Below are positions 1-56,928 of a DNA stretch of 64,000 nucleotides, one piece after another (the stretch's first letter is position 1; the number at the start of each line of letters is the position of its first letter). The DNA is from Squalus acanthias. Lineage: Eukaryota. Position numbers and translations under genes: made by a program. The stretch lies in assembly GCA_030390025.1 (NCBI GenBank), contig CM059431.1, positions 97,528,001-97,592,000 of the forward strand, read 5' to 3'. The notes under the pieces were generated by a model. The model was not told the origin of the DNA. It did no database searches and saw only the letters and a program-made list of their open reading frames with translations.

Positions 1-1798
1 ATAAATTCTACTTTCAGCAGCCTAAAGTGCCCAAGTTTTCCAAGTTAACTTGCATTGTGTTTTGGAGGGGGTGGGCTTCAGCTGTTCCATTGCAGAGCTC
101 GAATGAGAGTCTGTAGCTTATCTTCAGAATGAAGCGATTCTTGAATCTGAAGTCTAATATTTTGGAAATGCTGTTTTGCTTTCTGTAAGTGGCAGTTTCC
201 TGGGCTGAGGGTGAACGGGGCGATTTAATACAGAATAAAAGAGAAGGGGCAGGTTGTGTAAATAGGGAGGGTGAAAAACATTACTACTTGATGGTGAATG
301 TATCTGGCCAGACTCTTTCTCCCTTTCTGTGCTTTACTCTAATTCAGAAGGCTGCACACAGCAAGTGCTGTACCACCCACAAGTGGATCTGTTCTACAGG
401 CCCCAGCAGGTATCTATGAAAGGGGCTGAGTTTCATTGTGATGCCATTCTACAGCTCATTCATTGCTAACACATCACTGACCCACCCTGTGAATGAGATG
501 ACTAATTAACAATTCCTAAACACGGTATTGTTACACTATCAATTGTATCACAAACTCAGCAAAACCCAACCCCTAATAATTGAGATCACCATTGAAGCGC
601 GATGCTGGCCATTTGTACAGTTTTATGTATCTTGCACTAATCACTAAAGTCAGATAAAGCAGAAGGTTAATGGTGAGGTCAGAATCTGTCCCTATGTAAA
701 ATCTGATAAGGGCGCAGCACATTATTGTTCTATATTCCTATCTCCTGGTCAAGACTAGGCAGTGGAGCAAGTCAATCTTAGCAGCCTTTGTAATACATCT
801 CCCGGTGTAAAATATAAATGGTTCCTTTCACTGCCTATTCACATTTAAGTAAAGATGTAGTGGGGCCTTAGAATGTCCTGCTACAGCACACAGCTTCGCT
901 TTTGTGCACCTGTCACTCCGAACACCAGATTTACGATGTCCAATTATAACTGTGGCCAGTTCAGCCTCTGCAATTACTCTCCAAGTTCGTTCTGATGGGG
1001 CTTGAATAGGTTATTCACGAGTTTGATTGTATATCTGAAACATTACACAAGCTGGCTGTATTTTTTCTGCTGTCTCCCTTTGTTTCAGGGTCAGTGCTTA
1101 AGATGTGAGTAACTCGCACTGCAACAGCTCACCAGATTGCAAAAAGTTTCCTCTCAAGCAGTTCTCCTGAGATGCTGCTGTTACTCGGGTGACGTTCCTG
1201 GAGGTAATATTACCGCCCAGTTCCATTACTTTGAAGCATTTTCTATAAAGGATTGAACACACAACTCTCAGCCTACTTAATTAATTCATCACTAAAAACA
1301 TTGTCATTCCAATTGTAATTCCTGGTCCTAGGGAACAAGCAGAGGTGGGATGTCCCTATCAGCAGCAGGCAGGGATTGTGTGTGGGTTTATCCCTGGAGT
1401 GATAAATCTGCAATATTAAGAGCTCTGTGATTTCCCCTATCACAGAAAGCCAGTAATGGGTGGGGTGAGGGTGACTATCAGAGCTCCGAGAAAGGAAGCA
1501 TCAGTTGGCAACCCCTGTTGCCCACCTCCTACTCTTTCTGAGCCTGTGCATTAGAGATAAAGCAATAAAAACCTGTCCTGCCCTTACCACTGCCAGAAAG
1601 AGCCAGCTTCCTGTCATACCAGTTGACGGACATGTAGCCCTCCCAAGTGTGGAGTGAGAGTCTCTGCTTCGTATCCCTGTCCGCAATTTCACTAAAAATA
1701 GCAAATGGGCAAAAATAGAACCCAAAAACCCCAATCAGTCAATGCTTACATATTTCAGTATTTTGCTGTTGGCTCAATAGCAGTAAACAGGACTCCAG

Positions 1799-19702: not shown

Positions 19703-21536
19703 AGAACATAAGAACAGAAGAAACAGGAGCAGGAGTAGGCCAATTGGCCCCTCGAGCCTGCTCCGCCATTCAATAAGATCATGGCTGATCTGATCCTAAA
19801 CGCCAATCTACTATCACAGAACCATCTCCTGAACCTAACAGAATTGGACACATGAAATAGGAGCAGGATCAGGCTACACGGCCCCTGGGCCCGCTGCGCT
19901 ACCCACAGGGCCATGACCGATCCGAACCTAGACTCATGTCCAAATTCCTGCCCGCTCCCCATAACCCTTAATTCCCTTTACTTCTAGGAAACTGTCTATT
20001 TCTGTTTTAAATTTATTTAATGATGTAGCTTCTACAGCTTTTTGGGGCAGCATATTCCATGGACCTACCACCCTCTGAGTGAAGTAGTTCCTTCTCATCT
20101 CAGTTTTGAAAGAGCAGCCCCTTATTCTAAGACTATGTCCCCTTGTTCTAGGTTCACCCATCATCGGGAACATCCTCCCCGCATCCACCCGATCCAACCC
20201 CTTCACAATCTTATATGTTTCAATAAGATCGCCTCTCATTCTTCTGAACTCCAATGAGTAGAGTCCCAATCTACCCAACCTCTTCTCATATGTCCATCCC
20301 CTCATCCCCGGGATTAACCGAGTGAACCTTCTTTGTACTGACTCGAGAGCAAGTATGTCTTTTCTTAAGTATGGACACCAAAACTGTATGCAGTATTCCA
20401 GGTGCGGTCTCACCAATACCCTATACAACTGAAGCAATACCTCCCTATTTTTATATTCTATCCCCCTAACAATGAAAGCCAACATTCCATTGGCCTTCTT
20501 AATCACTTGCTGCACCTGCATACTAACCTTTTGAGTTTCGTGCACCAGGACCCCCAGATCCCTTTGTACTTCAGTACTTTCCAATTTCTTGCCATTAAGA
20601 TAATAACTTGCTCTACTATTTTTCCTGCCAAAGTGCATAACCTCACACTTTCCAGTATTGTATTCCATCTGCCAAATCTCTGCCCACTTACTTAGCCTGT
20701 CTATGTCCCCTTGCAGATTTTTTATGTCCTCCTCACTCACTACTTTCCCTCCCATCTTAGTATCATCTGGAAACTTTGATATGTTACACTCGGTCTCCTC
20801 CTCCAAATCGTTAATATAGATTGTAAAGAGTTGGGGACCCAGCACTGACCCCTGCGGAACACCACTAGTTACTGATTGCCAGTCTGAGAATGAACCATTT
20901 ATCCCAACTCTCTGCCTTCTGTTAGATAGCCAATCCTCTATCCATGCCAGAATATTACCCCCAATCCCGTGATTTTTTATCTTAAGCAATAATCTTTTGT
21001 GTGGCACCTTGTCAAATGCCTTTTGGAAGTCTAAATACACCACATCCACTGGTTCCCCTTTATCCACCCTATATGTTACTTCCTCAAAGAACTCCAGCAA
21101 ATTTGTCAAACATGACTTCCCCTTCATAAAACCATGCTGACTTTGTCCTATTAAATTATGATTATCCAAATGTCCCGTTACTGTGTCCTTAATAATGGAC
21201 TCCAAAATTTTACCTACCACAGATGTTAGGCTAACCGCTCTATAGTTTCCAGCATTCTGTCTACTGCCCTTTTTAAATAAGGGTGTTACATTAGCAGTTT
21301 TCCAGTCTGCCGGGATCTTTGCTGAGTCCAGGGAGTTTTGGAAAATTATTACCAATGCATCCACAATCCCTACCGCCACTTCCCTCAAGACCCTAGGATG
21401 TAAGCCATCAGGTCCAGGTGATTTATCCGCCTTGAGTCCCATTATTTTACCGAGTACCACTTCCTTAGTGATTTTGATCGTGTTTAGTTCCTCCCCCCCT
21501 ATAGCCCTCTGTTTGTCCAGTGTTGGGATATTCTTA

Positions 21537-22309
21537 GGGGTAAAAATTGAGTCGCGCCCCATTTGGGGCGCTAACCTCGCCGGGGCGCGACTTTTAGCGC
21601 CCCAAAAAAATTAGCGGCCCCGCGCCGGAACTTCAGTGGTTGCGCCCCAAGAGGGAAGCGGGGCGCCACTGGAAGCACCCCACATCCCTCTTGGGGCGCT
21701 GCGAGTGAATATCCTGGCGCTACGTGCCGCAGCGCCACGCGCTGCGGCACGTCGCGCCGCGGTATTGCAGGCCTTCCTCCCCTTCTTAAAGGGGAGGGAC
21801 CCTGCGCAGCGCGAACCGGGGCCCAGCTGGGCCCCCAGGGATCGGGAGTGCCGGCAAAAGAGCCCGGCACTCAAGAGAAGTGCCGGGCTCTTGGAGCGCA
21901 GCCGGCACTTCACGGTGGGGGGGCTTCACGGGGGCCGGGGACAGCAACGGGGGCAGGTGCTGGCAGGCGGCCAGCAACAAAAATGGCCGCCTGCCACCTC
22001 CCCTTTAAATATCGCCGCCCCGGCCGCACGTACGCCTCCCTGAACCCGTCGGACATAGCGTCTGGCGGTAAATCAGGGGGCGCGACTGAAGATCACGGCC
22101 GGGGCGCAAGCGGGGTGCTGCGCACGGCGATGACGTCATCGCCGGCGGCGCAGCGCCACAGGGCGCTACCGGCTGCCACCGCCGCTAACCTCCCACTAAA
22201 TTTTTCGGGAGGCGTGGGCGGCGCTGCGCCCGGGCGTTAGCTGCTTTACGCCCCATTAGCGCCCTCTTAAGGCGCTAACGGCAGGCGCAAGCAGCTGAAT
22301 TTTTCCCCC
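21537..22309. mobile_element. PIF/Harbinger-type MITE with TTA target-site duplication
   Basis: TTA-GGGGTAAAAATT...AATTTTTCCCCC-TTA; removing it restores the CR1 peptide VEDTKNIPT. Confidence 0.85.
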
Positions 22310-22609: not shown

Positions 22610-23502
22610 GGGGGAGAAATTCAGTATCGCCCCATTTGGGGTGCAATTATCGGCCGGGCGCAAAGATTAGCGCCTGGCGCTAATTATCGCCACCGACTGC
22701 AAACTTGACTTTTATTGACCCTGGAGGTGATTGGAGCGCTAAATCAGGCGCTTCACACCTGTCTTAAGGCGCAAAGGCCGAGGAGCGAGGCGCTACCTCA
22801 GAGCACTGGCGAAGCTCATGTGATGTCAGTCAGCAATGGAACACACACACAATGGCACGGGCCAGTTCTTAAAGGGGATGGATAATCTTGCTTTCCATCC
22901 ACATCCTGCTCATTGCAGCCTTGAATCTCGGCCTGGAGAGACCTGCACATCAAATCTGCTGGAAAGAACAATGGAGAGTACGAGGCAAAGAGCTCAGAGT
23001 GCAGCCCCCACAGTCTCTTCTAAATCGATACAAGGAATGGCAAATCAAAATGAACCTGCAAAGTGCTGCTCAGTACCCAAAATTCCTTCAGACAACGTTG
23101 AATCTCTCCAGAAGTCTCTCTCTCTCTCTCTCAGAATGCGTAGTTCAAAAATGGCACCAACAATAAAAGGCAGGAAGCGGTCACCTTTAAATAGCACTCC
23201 CCCTTTCCCTTCATGACTGCAGAACGCTCCCCTCAACCTGTCGTTGCTAGCATCAGGCGGTAAGGCAGGGGGCGCCACTCAATATCCGCTCCGGGGCGAT
23301 ACCGGGGCGTTGCGCACTCGACTGACGTCACGATCTGCCGGCGCAGGAGATCGTGGTGGTAGTGTTTAGCGCCGCCGCAAAATGTCTAGTTAATTTTGCG
23401 AGCGGCGCAAACTTCGCCGCGCCTGGGCGCTAGATGCTTTGCGCCCCATTAGTGCCCTCTTAAGGCGCTAACGGGAGGCGCAACCAACTGAATTTTTCCC
23501 CC
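22610..23502. mobile_element. PIF/Harbinger-type MITE with a 3-bp CTT duplication
   Basis: CTT-GGGGGAGAAATT...AATTTTTCCCCC-CTT; right end nearly identical to 22240-22309; removal restores RLKTRAFKVA. Confidence 0.8.
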
Positions 23503-24562
23503 CTTGTTTTTAGTCGAATACTATCCTTAATTTCTTTACTTAGCCACGGATGACTGTCTTTTCTTTTACACCCTTTTCTTCTCAGTGGAATATATTTTTT
23601 TTGGAAGTTGTAAAATAACTCCTTAAATGTACACCACTGATCATGTATCGTCTTACCCGTTAATCTATTTTCCCAATCCACTCTACTCAATTCCGCTCGC
23701 ATACCTTCATAGTCTCCTTTATTCAAGCTTAGCACGCTTGTTTGAGATCCAACCTTCCCACCCTCTAATTGAATATGGAATTCAACCATGTTATGGTCAC
23801 TCATTCCAAGGGGATCCTTTACTAGGACATTTTTAATTAATCCTATCTCGTTACACAGGACCAGATCTAAGGTTGCTTGCCCCCTGGTCGGTTCAGTTAC
23901 ATACTGCTCAAGAAACCCATCCCTAATACACTCAATGAACTCATCCTCAAGGCAGCCCTGCCCAATTTGAGTTGTCCAATTAATACGATAGTTAAAATCC
24001 CCCATAATTATAGATGTTCCCTTATTACAAGCCTCAACTATTTCCTGATTGATACTCCGTCCAACAGAGTTGCAACTGTTCGGAGGCCTATAGACTACGC
24101 CCACTAGTGTTTTTTTCCCCTTATTATTCCTTATCTCCACCCAAACTGTTTCATTATCCTGATCTTTTGACCTAATATCATTTCTCTGTATTACAGTGAT
24201 TCCTTCCTTTATTAACATAGCCACCCCACCTCCCCTTCCTTCCTGCCTGTCCTTCCTGATCGTTAAATAACCTGGTATGTTTAATTCCCAGGCATTGTCA
24301 CCCTGCAGCCATGTTTCTGTAATGGCCACAAGATCATACCCATATGTAGTTATTTGTGCCATTAACTCATCTATTTTGTTACGAATGCTACGTGCATTCA
24401 GATAGAGAACTTTCAAATATGTTTTGTGACACTTAGTTCCTGCTTTTGCCCTTTTTATTACTTTACCTTTTACTCCATACCTTCTGCCCCTTCCTGACAC
24501 ACTCTGGTTTTTAATTTCCCCGCTGCTACCTAAGTCTATGACCTTCTCTGTTGTCATTTTTA

Positions 24563-25787
24563 CGACAACCAGTTTTTTACCCAAAAACACGGAACAGCCA
24601 TGGGGACCAAATTCGCACCCCAATACGCCAACATCTTCATGCACAAGTTCGAGCAAGACTTCTTCGCTGCACAGGACCTCCAACCAACGCTGTACACCAG
24701 ATACATCGACAACATCTTCTTCCTTTGGACCCACGGCGAAGGATCACTGAAAGGACTACACGATAACATCAACAGGTTCCATCCCACCATCAAACTCACC
24801 ATGGACTACTCCTCAGAATCGGTTTCATTCTTGGACACACGAATCTCCATCAAAGACGGACACCTCAGGACTTCACTCTACCGCAAGCCCACGGACAACC
24901 TCACGATGCTCCACTTCTCCAGCTTCCACCCTAACCACGTTAAAGAAGCCATCCCCTATGGACAAGCCCTGCGAATACACAGGATCTGCTCAGACGAGGA
25001 GGAACGCGATGGACACCTACGGACGCTGAAAGACGCCCTCGTAAGAACGGGATATGACGCTCGACTCGTCGATCGACAGTTCCGACGGGCCACAGCGAAA
25101 AACCGCATAGACCTCCTCAGAAGGCGAACACGGGACACAACCAACAGAGTACCCTGCGTCGTCCAGTACTTCCCCGGAGCGGAGAAACTACGCCATGTTC
25201 TTCGCAGCCTTCAACATGTCATCGATGACGACGAACACCTTGCTAAGGCCATCCCCACGCCTCCACTACTCGCCTTCAAGCAGCCGCCTAACCTCAAAAG
25301 TACCATCGTTCGCAGCAAATTACCCAGCTGTCAGGAGAACAGCGACCACGACACCACACAACCCTGCCACGGCAACCTCTGCAAGACATGCCAGATCATC
25401 AACACAGATACCATCATCACACGTGAGGACACTACCCACCAGGTACATGGTACATACTCATGTGACTCGGCCAACGTTGTCTACCTCATACGTTGCAGGA
25501 AAGGATGCCCCGGAGCATGGTACATCGGCGAGACCATGCAGACACTGAGACAACGTATGAACGGACACCGCGCAACAATCGCCAGGCAGGATTGTTACCT
25601 CCCAGTCGGGGAACACTTCAGCAGTCAAGGACATTCAGCCTCAGATCTGCGGGTAAGCGTTCTCCAAGGCGGCCTTAGAGACACACGACAACGCAAAATC
25701 ATCGAGCAGAAACTGATAGCCAAGTTCCGCACCCATGAGGACGGCCTCAATAGGGATCTCGGGTTCCTGTCACGCTACAGAACGTGA
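24563..25787 (+). pseudogene. Penelope RT C-terminal half plus GIY-YIG endonuclease; 5'-truncated, YIDD changed to YIDN
   Basis: GTAMGTKFAP, RYIDNIF, YRKPTD, CKTC, VVYLIRC...YIGET...RMNGH, GLNRD. Confidence 0.9.
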
Positions 25788-26061
25788 AGCGACATCATTG
25801 TCTGTCTTTCCAGTTTAAAAAAAAAACACACAAAATTAAAACAACCAAAAAAAAACAACCAAAAAAAAAACTCAAAAAAAAGTTAGGAGCTCAACTGCAG
25901 ATGGCAGCATTTGACACGTTGGACCCCCTGTGACCCACCTCATTGTCTTGGCTGTGCTCTGATGTGTCTTTGATGTCGTGCCTTCCTGATGGATTGTATC
26001 TCTGTAGACAAGTCGCTCTCTGTGTATATATACTGTGTATTAGATTCCCTCACTGTACCTC

Positions 26062-26097
26062 TACCTGACAAAGGAGCAGCAGCTCCGAAAGCTCGTA
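26062..26097 (+). ncRNA. Minimal hammerhead ribozyme-like motif in the Penelope 3' end (core variant CUGACAA)
   Basis: UAC-CUGACAA-A-GGAGC-AGCA-GCUCC-GAA-AGCU-C-GUA: stem I UAC/GUA, stem II GGAGC/GCUCC, palindromic AGCU at stem III. Confidence 0.65.
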
Positions 26098-26185
26098 ATT
26101 TTAAATAAAACTGTTGGACTATAACTTGGTGTTGTGCGACTTGTCATTTTTATTATTTGCTCTCCAGGAACCTCCCCCCCACTAG

Positions 26186-51122: not shown

Positions 51123-51651
51123 AGATCTATTTACACGGAAAATCCTGAATTACAAATAGCAGTCGACCACAGAAATCTTATTACATCAGGAAATATGTTT
51201 AATCCTCATATTACACCTCTCACAAATGGGGAAATGCTGAGACACATTGCGGCAGGTTTCTATAAAACAGACATTTCAGATTGTCTGCCCGTTATAAAAC
51301 CCGCTCAATGATCACGAGATATTTCACAGAGTCCCTATAATCACAACTCAGTGACTCGAGGAGACGGGACTGGAGAACCAGGACTGCCAGCCTGATCTTA
51401 CCAGACAGCAAGCTGATGAAAAAAGAAATATTCAAAAAGGGACGTCGTAATTAATCAAAACCGTCATTCAAAAACAGATCCAGCACCTCATCACCATTAA
51501 CTATAGGAATGTAGAGGACTGGAAATGAGAGCTTCACTCAACAAGTCCCAGGAAATATCACAGCCCACAATACCCTTGTATTATATTAACTAGGAATGGA
51601 TCATTAATGGTGGTTAAAGACTTGAGCAAAAGCAATGTCCTAGTTAGAAAG

Positions 51652-51747
51652 TCCTCACTTCACCTGAGGAAGGAGCAATCGATAGCTCCGAAAGCTTGTG
51701 ATTTCAAATAAAACTGTTGGACTATAACCTGGTGTTGTGCGACCTCT
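51652..51747 (+). mobile_element. 96-bp Penelope 3'-end insertion (hammerhead plus terminal sequence) with a 12-bp TSD
   Basis: CTAGTTAGAAAG at 51640-51651 and 51748-51759; interior matches 26062-26140. Confidence 0.88.
51660..51701 (+). ncRNA. Minimal hammerhead ribozyme motif with intact CUGANGA and GAAA core
   Basis: UCAC-CUGAGGA-A-GGAGC-AAUCGAUA-GCUCC-GAA-AGCU-U-GUGA. Confidence 0.72.
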
Positions 51748-51805
51748 CTAGTTAGAAAGAGCATGAGCTGTTAGTCCTTCATCCTTTATCTGATGCATTA
51801 GCAGA

Positions 51806-52430
51806 TCATAAGAGAACATAAGAAATAGGAGCAGGAGTCGGCCATTCGGCCCCTCGAGCCTGCTCCGCCATTCAATAAGATCATGGCTGATCTTCTACCT
51901 CAACTCCACTTTCCTGCACTATCCCCATATCCCTTGATTTCCTTAATATCCAACAATCTATCGATCTCTGTCTTAAATATACTCAACGACTGAGCCTCCA
52001 CAGCCCTCTGGGAGTCGAGAACTCCAAAGATTCACCACCCTCTGAGTGAAGAAATTTCTCCTCATCTCAGTCCTAAATGGCCGCCCCTTATTCTGAGACT
52101 GTGACCCCTGGTTCTAGACTCTCCAGCCAGGGAAACATCCTCCCTGCATCTACCCTGTCAAGCCCTGTAAGAATTTTGTATGTTTCAATGAGATCACCTC
52201 ATTCTTCTAAACTCTAGAAAATATAGGCCTAGTCTACTCAATCTCTCCTCATAGGACAATCCCCCCATCTCAGGAATCAGTCTGGTGAACCTTTGTTGCA
52301 CTCTCTCTACAGCAAGTATATCCTTCCTTAGGTAAGGAGACCAAAACTGTACACAATACTCCAGGTGTGGTCTCGCCAGGGCCCTCTATAATTGCAGTCT
52401 TTACTCTTATACTCAAATCCTCTTGTAATA
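51806..52430 (-). mobile_element. CR1 3' fragment
   Basis: agaacataagaaataggagcaggag tail and reverse complement of the RT C-terminal coding sequence. Confidence 0.9.
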
Positions 52431-54911: not shown

Positions 54912-55034
54912 CTAGAAATTGGTTTCATCCCAAGAGAGATCATTCATATTCTTTAGAACTTTTCTAACCAGTTTCTCTAACTCCTTGCGAGCTCTCTGCT
55001 CCTCTTCCAGCGAACGCCTCATCTTCTTGTTTTC
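54912..55034 (-). CDS. ARHGEF7: PIX-family RhoGEF last coding exon: ENKKMRRSLEEEQRARKELEKLVRKVLKNMNDLSWDETNF*
   Basis: ttgtgttccAG| acceptor; 123 nt ending in TAG. Matches the beta-PIX C-terminus (...SLEEEQRARKDLEKLVRKVLKNMNDPAWDETNL) rather than the mammalian alpha-PIX tail. Confidence 0.9.
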   Translation of the reverse strand, partial: ENKKMRRSLEEEQRARKELEKLVRKVLKNMNDLSWDETNF

Positions 55035-55192
55035 CTGGAACACAAAATTCAGAATGAAAACTGAATCAAGGCGTTTGCAGGACACGCCCTCAGATATGGG
55101 CCTTTTCCTGGTGAGGGTTTTACACTCCCACGGATCATCTGGCACAGAACATGCAGCCATGGGCTGGGGAGCTGGGCAGGAGTCCAGACAGT

Positions 55193-55754: not shown

Positions 55755-56830
55755 TTTCACGACCTCAGGACGTCCCAAAGCGCTTTACAGCCAATGTAGT
55801 ACTTTTAAAGTGTAGTCACTGATGTAACGTAGGAAACGCGGAAGCCAATTTGCGCACAGCAAGATCACACAAATAACAATGTGATAATGACCAGATCATC
55901 TGTTTTAGTGATGTTGGTTGAGGGATAAATTATGGCCCCAGGACAGAGGAGAACTCTCCTGCTCTTCTTCCAATAGTGTCATGGGTTCTTTTACATCCAC
56001 CTGAGGGAAGACGGTGCCCCGGTTTAACGTCTCATCGGAAAGACGGCACCTCCAACAGTGCAGCACACCCTCAGTACTGCTCCTCTGACAGTGCAGCGCT
56101 CCCTAAGTAATGCCCCTCCAACAGTGCAGCACTCCCTCAGTACTGCCCCTCCGACAGTGCAGCACTCCCTCAGTACTGCCCTTCTGACAGTGCAGCAGGC
56201 CCTCAGTACTGCCCCTCCGACAGTGCAACTCTCCCCCAGTACTGCCCCATGACAGTACAGCGCTTCCTCAGTACTGCCCCTCCGACAGTGCCGCACTCCC
56301 TCAGTACTGCCCCTCCGACAGTGCAGCACTCCCTCAGTACTGCCCCTCCGACAGTGCAGCGCTCCCTCAGTACTGCCCCTGCGACAGTGCAGCACTCCCT
56401 CAGTACTGCCCCTTCGACAGTGCAGCGCTCCCTCAGTACTGCCCCTTCGACAGTGCAGCGCTCCCTCAGTGCTGCCCCTCCGACAGTGCAGCTCTCCCTC
56501 AGTACTGCCCCTCCGACAGTGCAGCGCTCCCTCAGTACCGCCCCTCCGACAGTGCAGCGCTCCCTCAGTACCGCCCCTCCGACAGTGCAGCGCTCCCTCA
56601 GTACCGCCCCTCCGACAGTGCAGCACTCCCTCAGTACTGCCCCTCCGACAGTGCAGCACTCCCTCAGTACTGCCCCTCCGACAGTGCAGCGCTCCCTCAG
56701 TACTGCCCCTCCGACAGTGCAGTGCTCCCTCAGTACTGCCCCTCCGACAGTGCAGCACTCCCTCAGTACTGCCCCTCCGACAGTGCAGCACTCCCTCAGT
56801 ACTGCCCTCCGACAGTGCAGCGCTCCCTCC
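55755..56830 (-). mobile_element. Head-less DeuSINE with a 33-bp minisatellite (~56050-56830, ~23 units)
   Basis: Reverse-complement SINE body followed by the array. Confidence 0.82.
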
Positions 56831-56928
56831 GGACCCTCCCAATTCGTAGCTTCAGTCCACAGAGGAAAAAAATGCTCTATGAATCTAGCCCAACATCTGT
56901 GAGTTCCCAGTACAGGTGACATACTCAC

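What the first reader, a model, noticed from the sequence alone, without database searches (positions are those of the whole stretch)
51640..51759. 96-bp mobile unit that is essentially a hammerhead ribozyme plus the Penelope 3' end
Seen: a perfect 12-bp TSD (CTAGTTAGAAAG) brackets 96 bp containing CUGAGGA, stem II GGAGC/GCUCC, GAAA, palindromic AGCU and closing stem UCAC/GUGA, followed by the same terminus as the Penelope at 26100-26140. Known: Penelope-like elements carry minimal hammerheads with a very short palindromic stem III, proposed to cleave as dimers. Inference: either an extreme 5' truncation or a non-autonomous ribozyme mini-element mobilised by the PLE. It lies antisense within the putative PIX 3'UTR.
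Basis: partly seen in the sequence, partly recalled or inferred. Interest (0 to 1): 0.75.

Follow-up and report, generated by a model that had tools for sequence, protein, structure and literature searches.

The report
Truncated Penelope-like element tail with hammerhead
This 96-base insert is an ordinary, dead-on-arrival tail-end copy of a very abundant Penelope-like jumping gene that happens to keep the element's small hammerhead ribozyme motif; it is not a new kind of mini-element.

Summary
A perfect 12-bp duplication (51640-51651 and 51748-51759) brackets 96 bp. The insert carries every sequence mark of the minimal, dimer-type hammerhead known from Penelope-like elements (PLEs), followed by the PLE 3' end.

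The insert is the last ~90 nt of a young PLE family of about 3.1 kb that encodes a reverse transcriptase and a GIY-YIG endonuclease. A 39-mer from its 3' end occurs 20,041 times exactly in this 3.7-Gb genome.

In an unbiased sample of 100 copies, 5' ends are spread from the last 50 nt to full length. There is only a broad hump (about 30%) around the 5' edge of the hammerhead. The window's own 5' end (a non-native TCCTCA stub plus unit position 7) occurs 14 times genome-wide: 11 in inverted dimers and 3 solo.

Short head-to-tail arrays are almost absent (14 matches). So this is an extreme 5' truncation, not a discrete mini-family or a retrozyme.

The family also shows the published PLE hallmarks: inverted head-to-head pairs (32 pairs in the sample), a ~40-nt tail on exactly one arm of each pair (32 of 32), and variable target duplications.

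Self-cleavage and expression could not be tested.

The parts
51640..51651 (.). left copy of the 12-bp target-site duplication CTAGTTAGAAAG
51652..51747 (+). 96-bp insert: a 5'-truncated 3' end of a Penelope-like element
   Evidence: identical over 96 bp at 14 places, the window's own included; the same sequence ends ORF-bearing elements.
51652..51657 (+). TCCTCA stub, an inverted copy of 51665-51670. It is not native to this subfamily, whose native sequence here is AATTTA.
   Evidence: 2,950 native copies against 14 stub-bearing copies. Of the 14, 11 are centres of inverted dimers and 3 are solo.
51660..51701 (+). minimal hammerhead motif: helix I, the CUGAGGA box, an extra A, helix II, GAAA, palindromic AGCU and U17, with the expected cut after 51697
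   Evidence: direct reading; 98.8% of cells paired against at most 43.5% when slid, with compensatory changes; helices I and II are the minimum-energy fold of 51657-51707.
51702..51747 (+). 3'-terminal region of the element up to the proximal reverse-transcription start (...GTGCGACCTCT); contains the 39-mer 51706-51744
   Evidence: 20,041 exact copies of the 39-mer; the short 3' ends lie 0-13 nt past ...CGACCTCT, and the window copy ends at 0.
51748..51759 (.). right copy of the target-site duplication
24600..26140 (+). second, longer 5'-truncated copy of a related PLE subfamily in the same window. The ORF remnant (24600-25787) is 94% identical over 328 aa to the ORF of locus L061. The hammerhead-like stretch at 26060-26099 has box CUGACAA, and the 3' end is 26103-26140.

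Best explanation
The insert is a dead-on-arrival, extremely 5'-truncated copy of a young, very abundant endonuclease-bearing Penelope-like element (PLE).

Inferred mechanism, by analogy with the Anolis PLE studied in vitro:
1. The element's GIY-YIG endonuclease made staggered nicks, which explains the 12-bp duplication.
2. Reverse transcription started at the family's proximal internal start site (...CGACCTCT).
3. It copied only the last ~90 nt of the RNA: the tail region plus the minimal hammerhead.
4. It ended at unit position 7, just 5' of helix I.
5. A 6-nt snap-back copy (TCCTCA) was added before the far end was joined.

The hammerhead is present only because it lies within the last 100 nt of every copy. 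Nothing suggests that this copy is transcribed, cleaves or moves again.

Shown: the insert's identity with the element's 3' end, the family's architecture, and the spread of 5' ends. Inferred: the order of steps, the snap-back, and inactivity.
For: Identity with the element:
- The 96 bp are identical at 14 places, the window's own included. They equal the 3' end of elements with a reverse-transcriptase ORF (RVT_1 E 2e-9) and a GIY-YIG domain (E 7e-5, 23.5 bits against a cut-off of 22.6). These elements repeat every 3,136-3,138 bp.
- The 39-mer from the 3' end occurs 20,041 times exactly; the reversed control gave 0.

Unbiased sample, the first 100 places on contig 1. 5' ends by unit position, with by-eye corrections in brackets:
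- -4..+16: 30 (32).
- 17..49: 14 (11).
- -5..-83: 14 (15).
- Beyond -120: 42.

Exact counts for the window's subfamily:
- Positions 21-54: 4,028.
- Positions 7-38: 3,516.
- Native positions 1-32: 2,950.
About 73% of copies therefore run on upstream of the window copy's start.

Rarity of this form:
- The window-type 5' end occurs 14 times in the genome, 3 of them solo.
- Short head-to-tail arrangements: 14 matches.

Published PLE hallmarks seen here:
- 64 of 100 arms lie in 32 inverted pairs.
- 32 of 32 pairs have one short 3' end and one 38-47-nt tail.
- Target duplications of about 7-24 bp, read by eye.

Published background: truncation, inverted copies and a one-sided tail (Craig 2021, passages); nicking and extension of both strands, with two internal start sites (Frangieh 2024, main text); single min-hammerheads as truncated PLEs, and pairs on opposite strands 100-700 bp apart (Cervera and de la Pena 2014).
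Against: - 5' ends are not uniform. About 30% of arms end within a 21-nt zone at the hammerhead's 5' edge, so something beyond random truncation acts there.
- Three solo copies (the window's, L005, L007) share the same non-native stub and identical sequence. This could also mean copying from a stub-bearing template.
- No empty site was found, because the left flank is unique in the genome. The insertion event rests on the duplication and on family membership.
- No RNA data could be read for starts or ends.
- The snap-back step is inferred from junction sequences only.
Confidence: 0.85

Rival explanations
1. The ~96-bp unit is a discrete non-autonomous mini-element (retrozyme-like or SINE-like). 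Its own short hammerhead RNA would be made repeatedly and mobilised in trans by the PLE protein.
For: - There is a hump of 5' ends at unit positions -4..+16: 30 of 100 arms.
- Three identical solo copies share the same stub.
- Three head-to-tail mini-dimers exist in which a unit plus tail is followed directly by a unit starting at position 4-7.
- Non-LTR retrozymes are reported to derive from PLE pseudo-LTRs (Li et al. 2026 preprint, abstract and results).
Against: - Only 3 solo copies out of about 20,000 3' ends have this 5' end.
- The hump is broad, covering positions 1 to 16, not one start.
- Short head-to-tail arrangements gave only 14 matches genome-wide.
- The sequence is identical to the autonomous element's own 3' end, with no diagnostic changes.
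- About 73% of subfamily copies extend further upstream.
Confidence: 0.08
2. The 5' end is an RNA 5' end, not a failure of the enzyme. The pseudo-LTR would hold a TATA box and initiator that start transcription at about unit position 6. Short read-out transcripts from any copy would then be copied to their full length, giving inserts of about 90-140 bp. The first cDNA strand would sometimes fold back on itself at that end.
For: - Read by eye: CTATATATGC lies about 33 nt upstream of position 7, and TTACTTC at positions 4-10 fits the initiator pattern (recalled consensus YYANWYY). Both are kept in subfamilies a, b and c.
- 9 of 100 arms start at positions 5-7.
- The same junction (one arm ending at position 14, the other starting at 7) recurs 36 times genome-wide with different flanks.
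- The three mini-tandems restart at positions 4-7.
Against: - Of 20 units that precede an ORF start, 14 continue natively for at least 60 nt upstream and only 1 starts near position -8. The RNAs that give ORF-bearing copies therefore do not start at position 6.
- The hump reaches to position 16 and to -4.
- The only studied PLE promoter (D. virilis) is TATA-less and internal (Schostak 2008, passages).
- There is no RNA evidence. The runs found are contigs guessed to be RNA, and their depth profile looks like DNA copy number.
Confidence: 0.2
3. The insert is the remnant of a head-to-head inverted dimer that later lost its left arm by deletion.
For: The TCCTCA stub is exactly the first 6 nt of the other arm in the 36 canonical dimers.
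Against: The perfect 12-bp duplication abuts the stub directly. A later deletion would have had to end exactly at the duplication boundary, and would have had to do so in three independent loci (the window, L005, L007).
Confidence: 0.02

Closest known systems
Single minimal hammerheads as truncated PLE copies (Cervera and de la Pena 2014, Mol Biol Evol, PMC4209133; text read)
   Same: - The CUGANGA and GAAA boxes.
- An unpaired nucleotide between A9 and 10.1.
- The G10.1-C11.1 pair.
- A short helix I and a palindromic 15.2-16.2.
- The motifs sit in the PLE terminal repeat.
- Most occur as single genome-wide elements 'probably related to truncated PLEs'.
- Pairs occur on opposite strands 100-700 bp apart.
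   Different: Nothing in kind. Here the family is unusually uniform and numerous (20,041 identical 39-mers), helix II is 5 bp, and 13 of 74 sampled copies carry CCGACGA instead of CUGANGA.
Canonical insertion unit of endonuclease-bearing PLEs (Craig et al. 2021, PMC8557442, passages; Frangieh et al. 2024, PMC11167929, main text)
   Same: - Heavy 5' truncation.
- Partial tandems.
- An adjacent inverted 5'-truncated copy.
- A 30-40-bp tail at one end only.
- Two internal start sites for reverse transcription.
- Extension of both DNA strands.
   Different: The window's copy is the minimal case: one arm, the short 3' end, and about 90 nt copied. In this genome the one-sided tail holds in 32 of 32 sampled pairs. 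I did not see such a count in the passages I read.
Non-LTR retrozymes of animals (Cervera and de la Pena 2020, listing only; Li, Clavereau and Pollet 2026 preprint, abstract and results)
   Same: Short non-coding hammerhead-bearing DNA related to PLE pseudo-LTRs; monomer copies exist.
   Different: Retrozymes are head-to-tail arrays whose units are processed to circular RNA. Here the copy is solo, is identical to the autonomous element's end, and short tandems are nearly absent.
5'-truncated and 5'-inverted LINE-1 insertions (recalled, no call)
   Same: Dead-on-arrival short 3' fragments flanked by target duplications; inverted structures arise when both DNA ends prime.
   Different: In the PLE pairs both arms start from the 3' region of the template and carry different start sites. 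The enzyme is a GIY-YIG/telomerase-like fusion, and there is no poly(A).

Membership tests
Minimal dimer-type hammerhead of metazoan PLEs | Catalytic boxes CUGANGA and GAAA in the right order and spacing | tested here: met
   CUGAGGA at 51664-51670 and GAAA at 51690-51693. In the sample, 61 of 74 arms fit CUGANGA and 13 carry CCGACGA; GAAAGCTTGTGA is intact in 93 of 100.
Minimal dimer-type hammerhead of metazoan PLEs | Extra unpaired nucleotide between A9 and 10.1, and a G10.1-C11.1 pair | tested here: met
   A at 51671, and G 51672 pairs with C 51689. In one search this pair is G-C in 22 of 23 sequences and G-U in 1.
Minimal dimer-type hammerhead of metazoan PLEs | Helices I and II kept by base pairing across variants | tested here: met
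   98.8% of 253 cells are paired, against 27.7-43.5% with the partner slid. The closing pair of helix II is C-G in 14 sequences and U-A in 8. One compensatory change lies in helix I. The sequences are close relatives, so this is modest evidence.
Minimal dimer-type hammerhead of metazoan PLEs | Very short palindromic helix III (15.1-16.1 AGCU) that can pair only between two molecules | tested here: met
   AGCU at 51693-51696, invariant in 23 of 23 sequences. A simple two-strand fold paired the strands through loop II instead, so the dimer form itself is not shown.
Minimal dimer-type hammerhead of metazoan PLEs | Self-cleavage after H17 | not testable with these tools
   No assay was possible. 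5' ends near the cut site (positions 43-49) number 5 of 100 and only 1 is exactly at 47, so there is no clear footprint.
Rfam hammerhead families | Match to a curated covariance model | tested here: not met
   (gathering score, whole window) gave 0 matches. One search (E<=10, 201 nt) gave only two weak microRNA matches.
Endonuclease-bearing Penelope-like element (source family) | [quoted passage not shown] | tested here: met
   Locus L061 ORF: RVT_1 E 2e-9; GIY-YIG E 7e-5, 23.5 bits against a cut-off of 22.6. The window's own 96 bp holds no ORF.
Endonuclease-bearing Penelope-like element (source family) | Partial tandems (pseudo-LTRs), inverted 5'-truncated partner, and a 30-40-bp tail at one end | tested here: met
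   Spacing of 3,136-3,138 bp. 32 inverted pairs among 100 arms, all 32 with one short end and one long end.
Non-LTR retrozyme | Head-to-tail arrays of short hammerhead units | tested here: not met
   The window copy is solo. Genome-wide there are 14 matches for a 3' end followed within 150 nt by a hammerhead start on the same strand.
Non-LTR retrozyme | Circular RNA from the unit | not testable with these tools
   Only assembled contigs of runs guessed to be RNA were available.
Discrete SINE-like mini-element | A common, sharp 5' end and private diagnostic sequence | tested here: not met
   14 copies have this 5' end, 3 of them solo. 5' ends are spread. The sequence equals the autonomous element's end.

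The most novel reading that the evidence does not exclude
The pseudo-LTR of this family starts transcription at about unit position 6, so the hammerhead sits at the extreme 5' end of every transcript. Each of the roughly 20,000 scattered tails could then emit a hammerhead RNA of about 90-140 nt that still carries the reverse-transcription start sites. Inserts like this one would be full-length copies of that RNA, sometimes folded back into hairpin dimers. That would make them the simplest possible self-renewing parasite of a PLE, and a natural route from pseudo-LTR to retrozyme.
Probability: 0.15. Interest if true: 0.5.

Novelty: already known. Interest (0 to 1): 0.15.

Why it matters
In itself it matters little. 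It is one more truncated copy of a kind described in 2014 and 2021.

The family around it may be useful material for the still unsolved PLE insertion mechanism. It is young, uniform and huge, and its junctions can be read at single-base resolution. Three features stand out:
- Every sampled inverted pair combines the proximal and the distal start site (32 of 32).
- One arm-to-arm junction recurs 36 times.
- 5' ends pile up at the hammerhead's 5' edge.

About 18% of sampled copies have C instead of U at core position 4 yet share the identical 3' end. That U4 is otherwise invariant is recalled, not tested here. This fits the published in vitro result that cleavage is not needed for insertion.

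Tried and rejected
- **Rfam:** no hammerhead model matches. This is expected for a motif without an intramolecular helix III, so it was not used against the motif.
- **RNA evidence:** all 24 runs listed are kept as assembled contigs. 22 are not on record as RNA, and the other two held only 0.04 of the words. I laid four runs (X1, X2, X3, X6). Depth rises 10- to 40-fold over the last ~100 nt, as DNA copy number would, and no starts or ends can be read. This says nothing on expression, transcription start or cleavage.
- **Paralogous empty site:** the 172-nt left flank is unique in the genome, so none was found.
- **Two-strand fold of the hammerhead domain:** the minimum-energy dimer pairs through the loop II palindrome and swapped helix II, not through helix III. 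This neither supports nor refutes the catalytic dimer.
- **Thermodynamic stability:** z-scores of -1.1 to -1.6 are not distinctive.
- **Start of ORF-bearing copies:** I asked whether they begin at the putative transcription start. 14 of 20 continue upstream natively, so that prediction failed for long copies.
- **Footprint of hammerhead cleavage in 5' ends:** 5 of 100 ends lie at positions 43-49 and only one lies exactly at the cut. This is too weak to claim.
- **Automated 5'-end mapping:** it misplaced three arms of a subfamily without a long reference (listed at 33). By eye they end near -2, 3-6 and -33. I give both counts.
- **Earlier scan notes:** nothing was found by place or by sequence.

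Full report
**Observation**

The sequence is as described. CTAGTTAGAAAG stands at 51640-51651 and again at 51748-51759, with 96 bp between. It is the only direct repeat of 10 nt or more in 51300-52100. The 12-mer has no other copy in the window at up to one mismatch.

Within the 96 bp, reading:
- Helix I: UCAC (51660-51663) with GUGA (51698-51701).
- CUGAGGA: 51664-51670.
- One extra A: 51671.
- Helix II: GGAGC (51672-51676) with GCUCC (51685-51689).
- GAAA: 51690-51693.
- Palindromic AGCU: 51693-51696.
- U: 51697, after which a hammerhead would cut.

The 3' part (51706-51743) matches 26103-26140 at 37 of 38 positions. No Rfam model recognises the motif.

**What it belongs to**

The window is part of a 3.7-Gb assembly. 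The 96 bp recur with 100% identity at 14 places, the window's own included. A 39-mer from its 3' end occurs 20,041 times exactly; the reversed control gave 0.

In locus L061 the same unit stands twice on one strand, 3,136 bp apart, around an ORF. The ORF has a reverse-transcriptase domain (RVT_1, E 2e-9). Near its C-terminus it has a GIY-YIG domain (E 7e-5, 23.5 bits against a cut-off of 22.6). Arrays with 3,138-bp spacing are seen elsewhere.

The ORF start lies about 45 nt after the unit. The unit is therefore the end of the 3' UTR and, in tandem copies, part of the pseudo-LTR.

The ORF remnant at window 24600-25787 is 94% identical over 328 aa to that protein.

**Is the 96-bp form a discrete family?**

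To avoid the bias of a full-length query, I took the first 100 places of the 39-mer on contig 1 and fetched them all. I mapped each arm's 5' end against long copies and read the short ones by eye.

5' ends by unit position, with by-eye corrections for three misplaced arms in brackets:
- -4 to +16: 30 arms (32).
- 17 to 49: 14 arms (11).
- -5 to -83: 14 arms (15).
- Beyond -120: 42 arms.

So 5' ends are continuously spread, with a steep decay and a broad hump at the hammerhead's 5' edge. There is no sharp peak.

Exact genome-wide counts for the window's own subfamily agree:
- Positions 21-54: 4,028 copies.
- Positions 7-38: 3,516 copies.
- Native upstream sequence (positions 1-32): 2,950 copies.

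The window copy's own start is rare. TCCTCA followed by the subfamily's hammerhead occurs 14 times in the genome. Eleven of these are centres of inverted dimers and three are solo (the window, L005 and L007).

TCCTCA is not native here, since the native bases are AATTTA. It is the reverse complement of the TGAGGA eight bases further on, and the same junction forms the centre of 36 inverted dimers with different flanks.

Short head-to-tail arrangements, the hallmark of retrozymes, give only 14 matches genome-wide. Three of these are a unit plus tail followed directly by a unit starting at position 4-7.

**Family architecture**

- 64 of the 100 arms lie in 32 head-to-head pairs with the 3' ends pointing outward, 89 to 5,252 bp apart.
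- In all 32 pairs, one arm ends 0-13 nt past ...CGACCTCT and the other carries a further tail of 38-47 nt that stops at the ORF start.
- Of the 36 single arms, 28 have the short end and 8 the long one. At least two singles are hidden pairs by eye.
- Target duplications of about 7-24 bp flank singles and whole pairs, often with a few bases of identity to the element's end.
- Several targets recur at the same sites of other repeats.

These are the published PLE features:
- Heavy 5' truncation, an adjacent inverted truncated copy, and a 30-40-bp tail at only one end (Craig et al. 2021, passages).
- A protein that nicks and extends both strands and starts reverse transcription at two internal sites that bound the tail (Frangieh et al. 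2024, main text).

**The hammerhead**

The motif meets every sequence criterion that Cervera and de la Pena (2014; read) give for PLE minimal hammerheads:
- The catalytic boxes.
- The extra base between A9 and 10.1.
- The G10.1-C11.1 pair.
- A short helix I.
- A palindromic 15.2-16.2.

On 23 distinct variants, 98.8% of cells pair, against at most 43.5% when the partner is slid. The closing pair of helix II is C-G in 14 sequences and U-A in 8, and helix I has one compensatory change in the window's older copy. The variants are close relatives, so this is modest support.

Helices I and II are the minimum-energy fold of 51657-51707, but the z-score is only -1.5. In the full 96-nt window copy the stub pairs with the core box instead.

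Conservation of the core is incomplete. Of 74 sampled arms with a recognisable first box:
- 59 read CUGAGGA.
- 2 read CUGACGA.
- 13 read CCGACGA.

The window's older copy reads CUGACAA.

Cleavage was not testable. The 5' ends show no clear footprint of the cut site (5 of 100 at positions 43-49, one exactly at 47).

**Why the hump at the hammerhead's edge?**

I considered a transcription start. A TATA-like CTATATATGC lies about 33 nt upstream of position 7, and TTACTTC at 4-10 fits the initiator pattern. This is read by eye, and the consensus is recalled.

For this reading:
- 9 of 100 arms start at positions 5-7.
- The 36 recurrent junctions start at 7.
- The three mini-tandems restart at 4-7.

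Against it:
- Of 20 units that precede an ORF start, 14 continue natively upstream and only one starts near -8.
- The only PLE promoter studied is TATA-less (Schostak et al. 2008, passages).
- The public runs available gave no usable RNA information.

I keep it as a minority reading.

**Context**

An ARHGEF7 (beta-PIX)-like last exon ends at 54915 on the minus strand (E 1.5e-17 to PDB 3l4f). The insert lies 3.2 kb downstream of that gene's stop codon, on the opposite strand. Whether that is still 3' UTR is not shown.

**Verdict**

The finding is real and correctly described, but ordinary. It is an extreme 5'-truncated, dead-on-arrival copy of a known kind of element carrying a known kind of ribozyme motif. 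The discrete mini-element idea fails its own test.

My conclusion rests on the calls above.

Noticed in passing
genome-wide sample: loci L031-L107 (contig 1): In all 32 sampled inverted PLE pairs, one arm uses the proximal 3' end (0-13 nt past ...CGACCTCT) and the other the distal one (a 38-47-nt tail ending at the ORF start). No pair has two alike. The one-sided tail is known, but such a clean count may help to model the insertion mechanism.
   Followed up: partly
loci L001-L014 and 36 places listed: One exact arm-to-arm junction (one arm ending at unit position 14, a 7-nt spacer CTTCACC, the other arm running on from position 7) recurs 36 times with different flanks. In 11 of 12 dimers read, the arm that owns the spacer in sense orientation is the one with the long tail. 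This looks like a directed fold-back or template switch.
   Followed up: partly
loci L044, L046, L056, L070, L076, L089, L105 and others: 13 of 74 sampled hammerheads read CCGACGA, that is C instead of U at core position 4 (recalled to be invariant in hammerheads), while sharing the identical 39-nt 3' end. Whole subfamilies seem to spread with a core that should be poorly active.
   Followed up: partly
loci L011, L043, L044, L050; L033, L036, L040, L053; L017, L023, L055: Independent PLE insertions share the same target sequences inside other repeats, such as a LINE-like reading frame. Often a few bases are identical to the element's 3' end. This is either target preference or microhomology at priming.
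   Followed up: no
window 24600-26140 (+): A 5'-truncated copy (about 1.5 kb) of a sister PLE subfamily with a long GIY-YIG-bearing ORF remnant. Its hammerhead-like stretch has CUGACAA in place of CUGANGA and a compensated helix I.
   Followed up: partly
window 19934-21562 (-) and 23460-24734 (-): LINE-type ORFs (RVT_1 E 9e-30; Exo_endo_phos E 2e-13) lie next to the PLE copy.
   Followed up: no
window 54915-55049 (-): Last coding exon of an ARHGEF7 (beta-PIX)-like gene: the coiled coil and the C-terminal ...WDETNF.
   Followed up: partly
window 56024-56902: A long tandem array that is open in several frames on both strands (repeated ...STEGVLHCRRG... units), a minisatellite-like stretch.
   Followed up: no
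runs of organisms A, B, I, J, K: Runs labelled with several different organisms hold 36-75% of the sampled words of this PLE's 3' UTR and tail. Near-identical copies of the family may therefore occur in more than one species; I did not look further.
   Followed up: no
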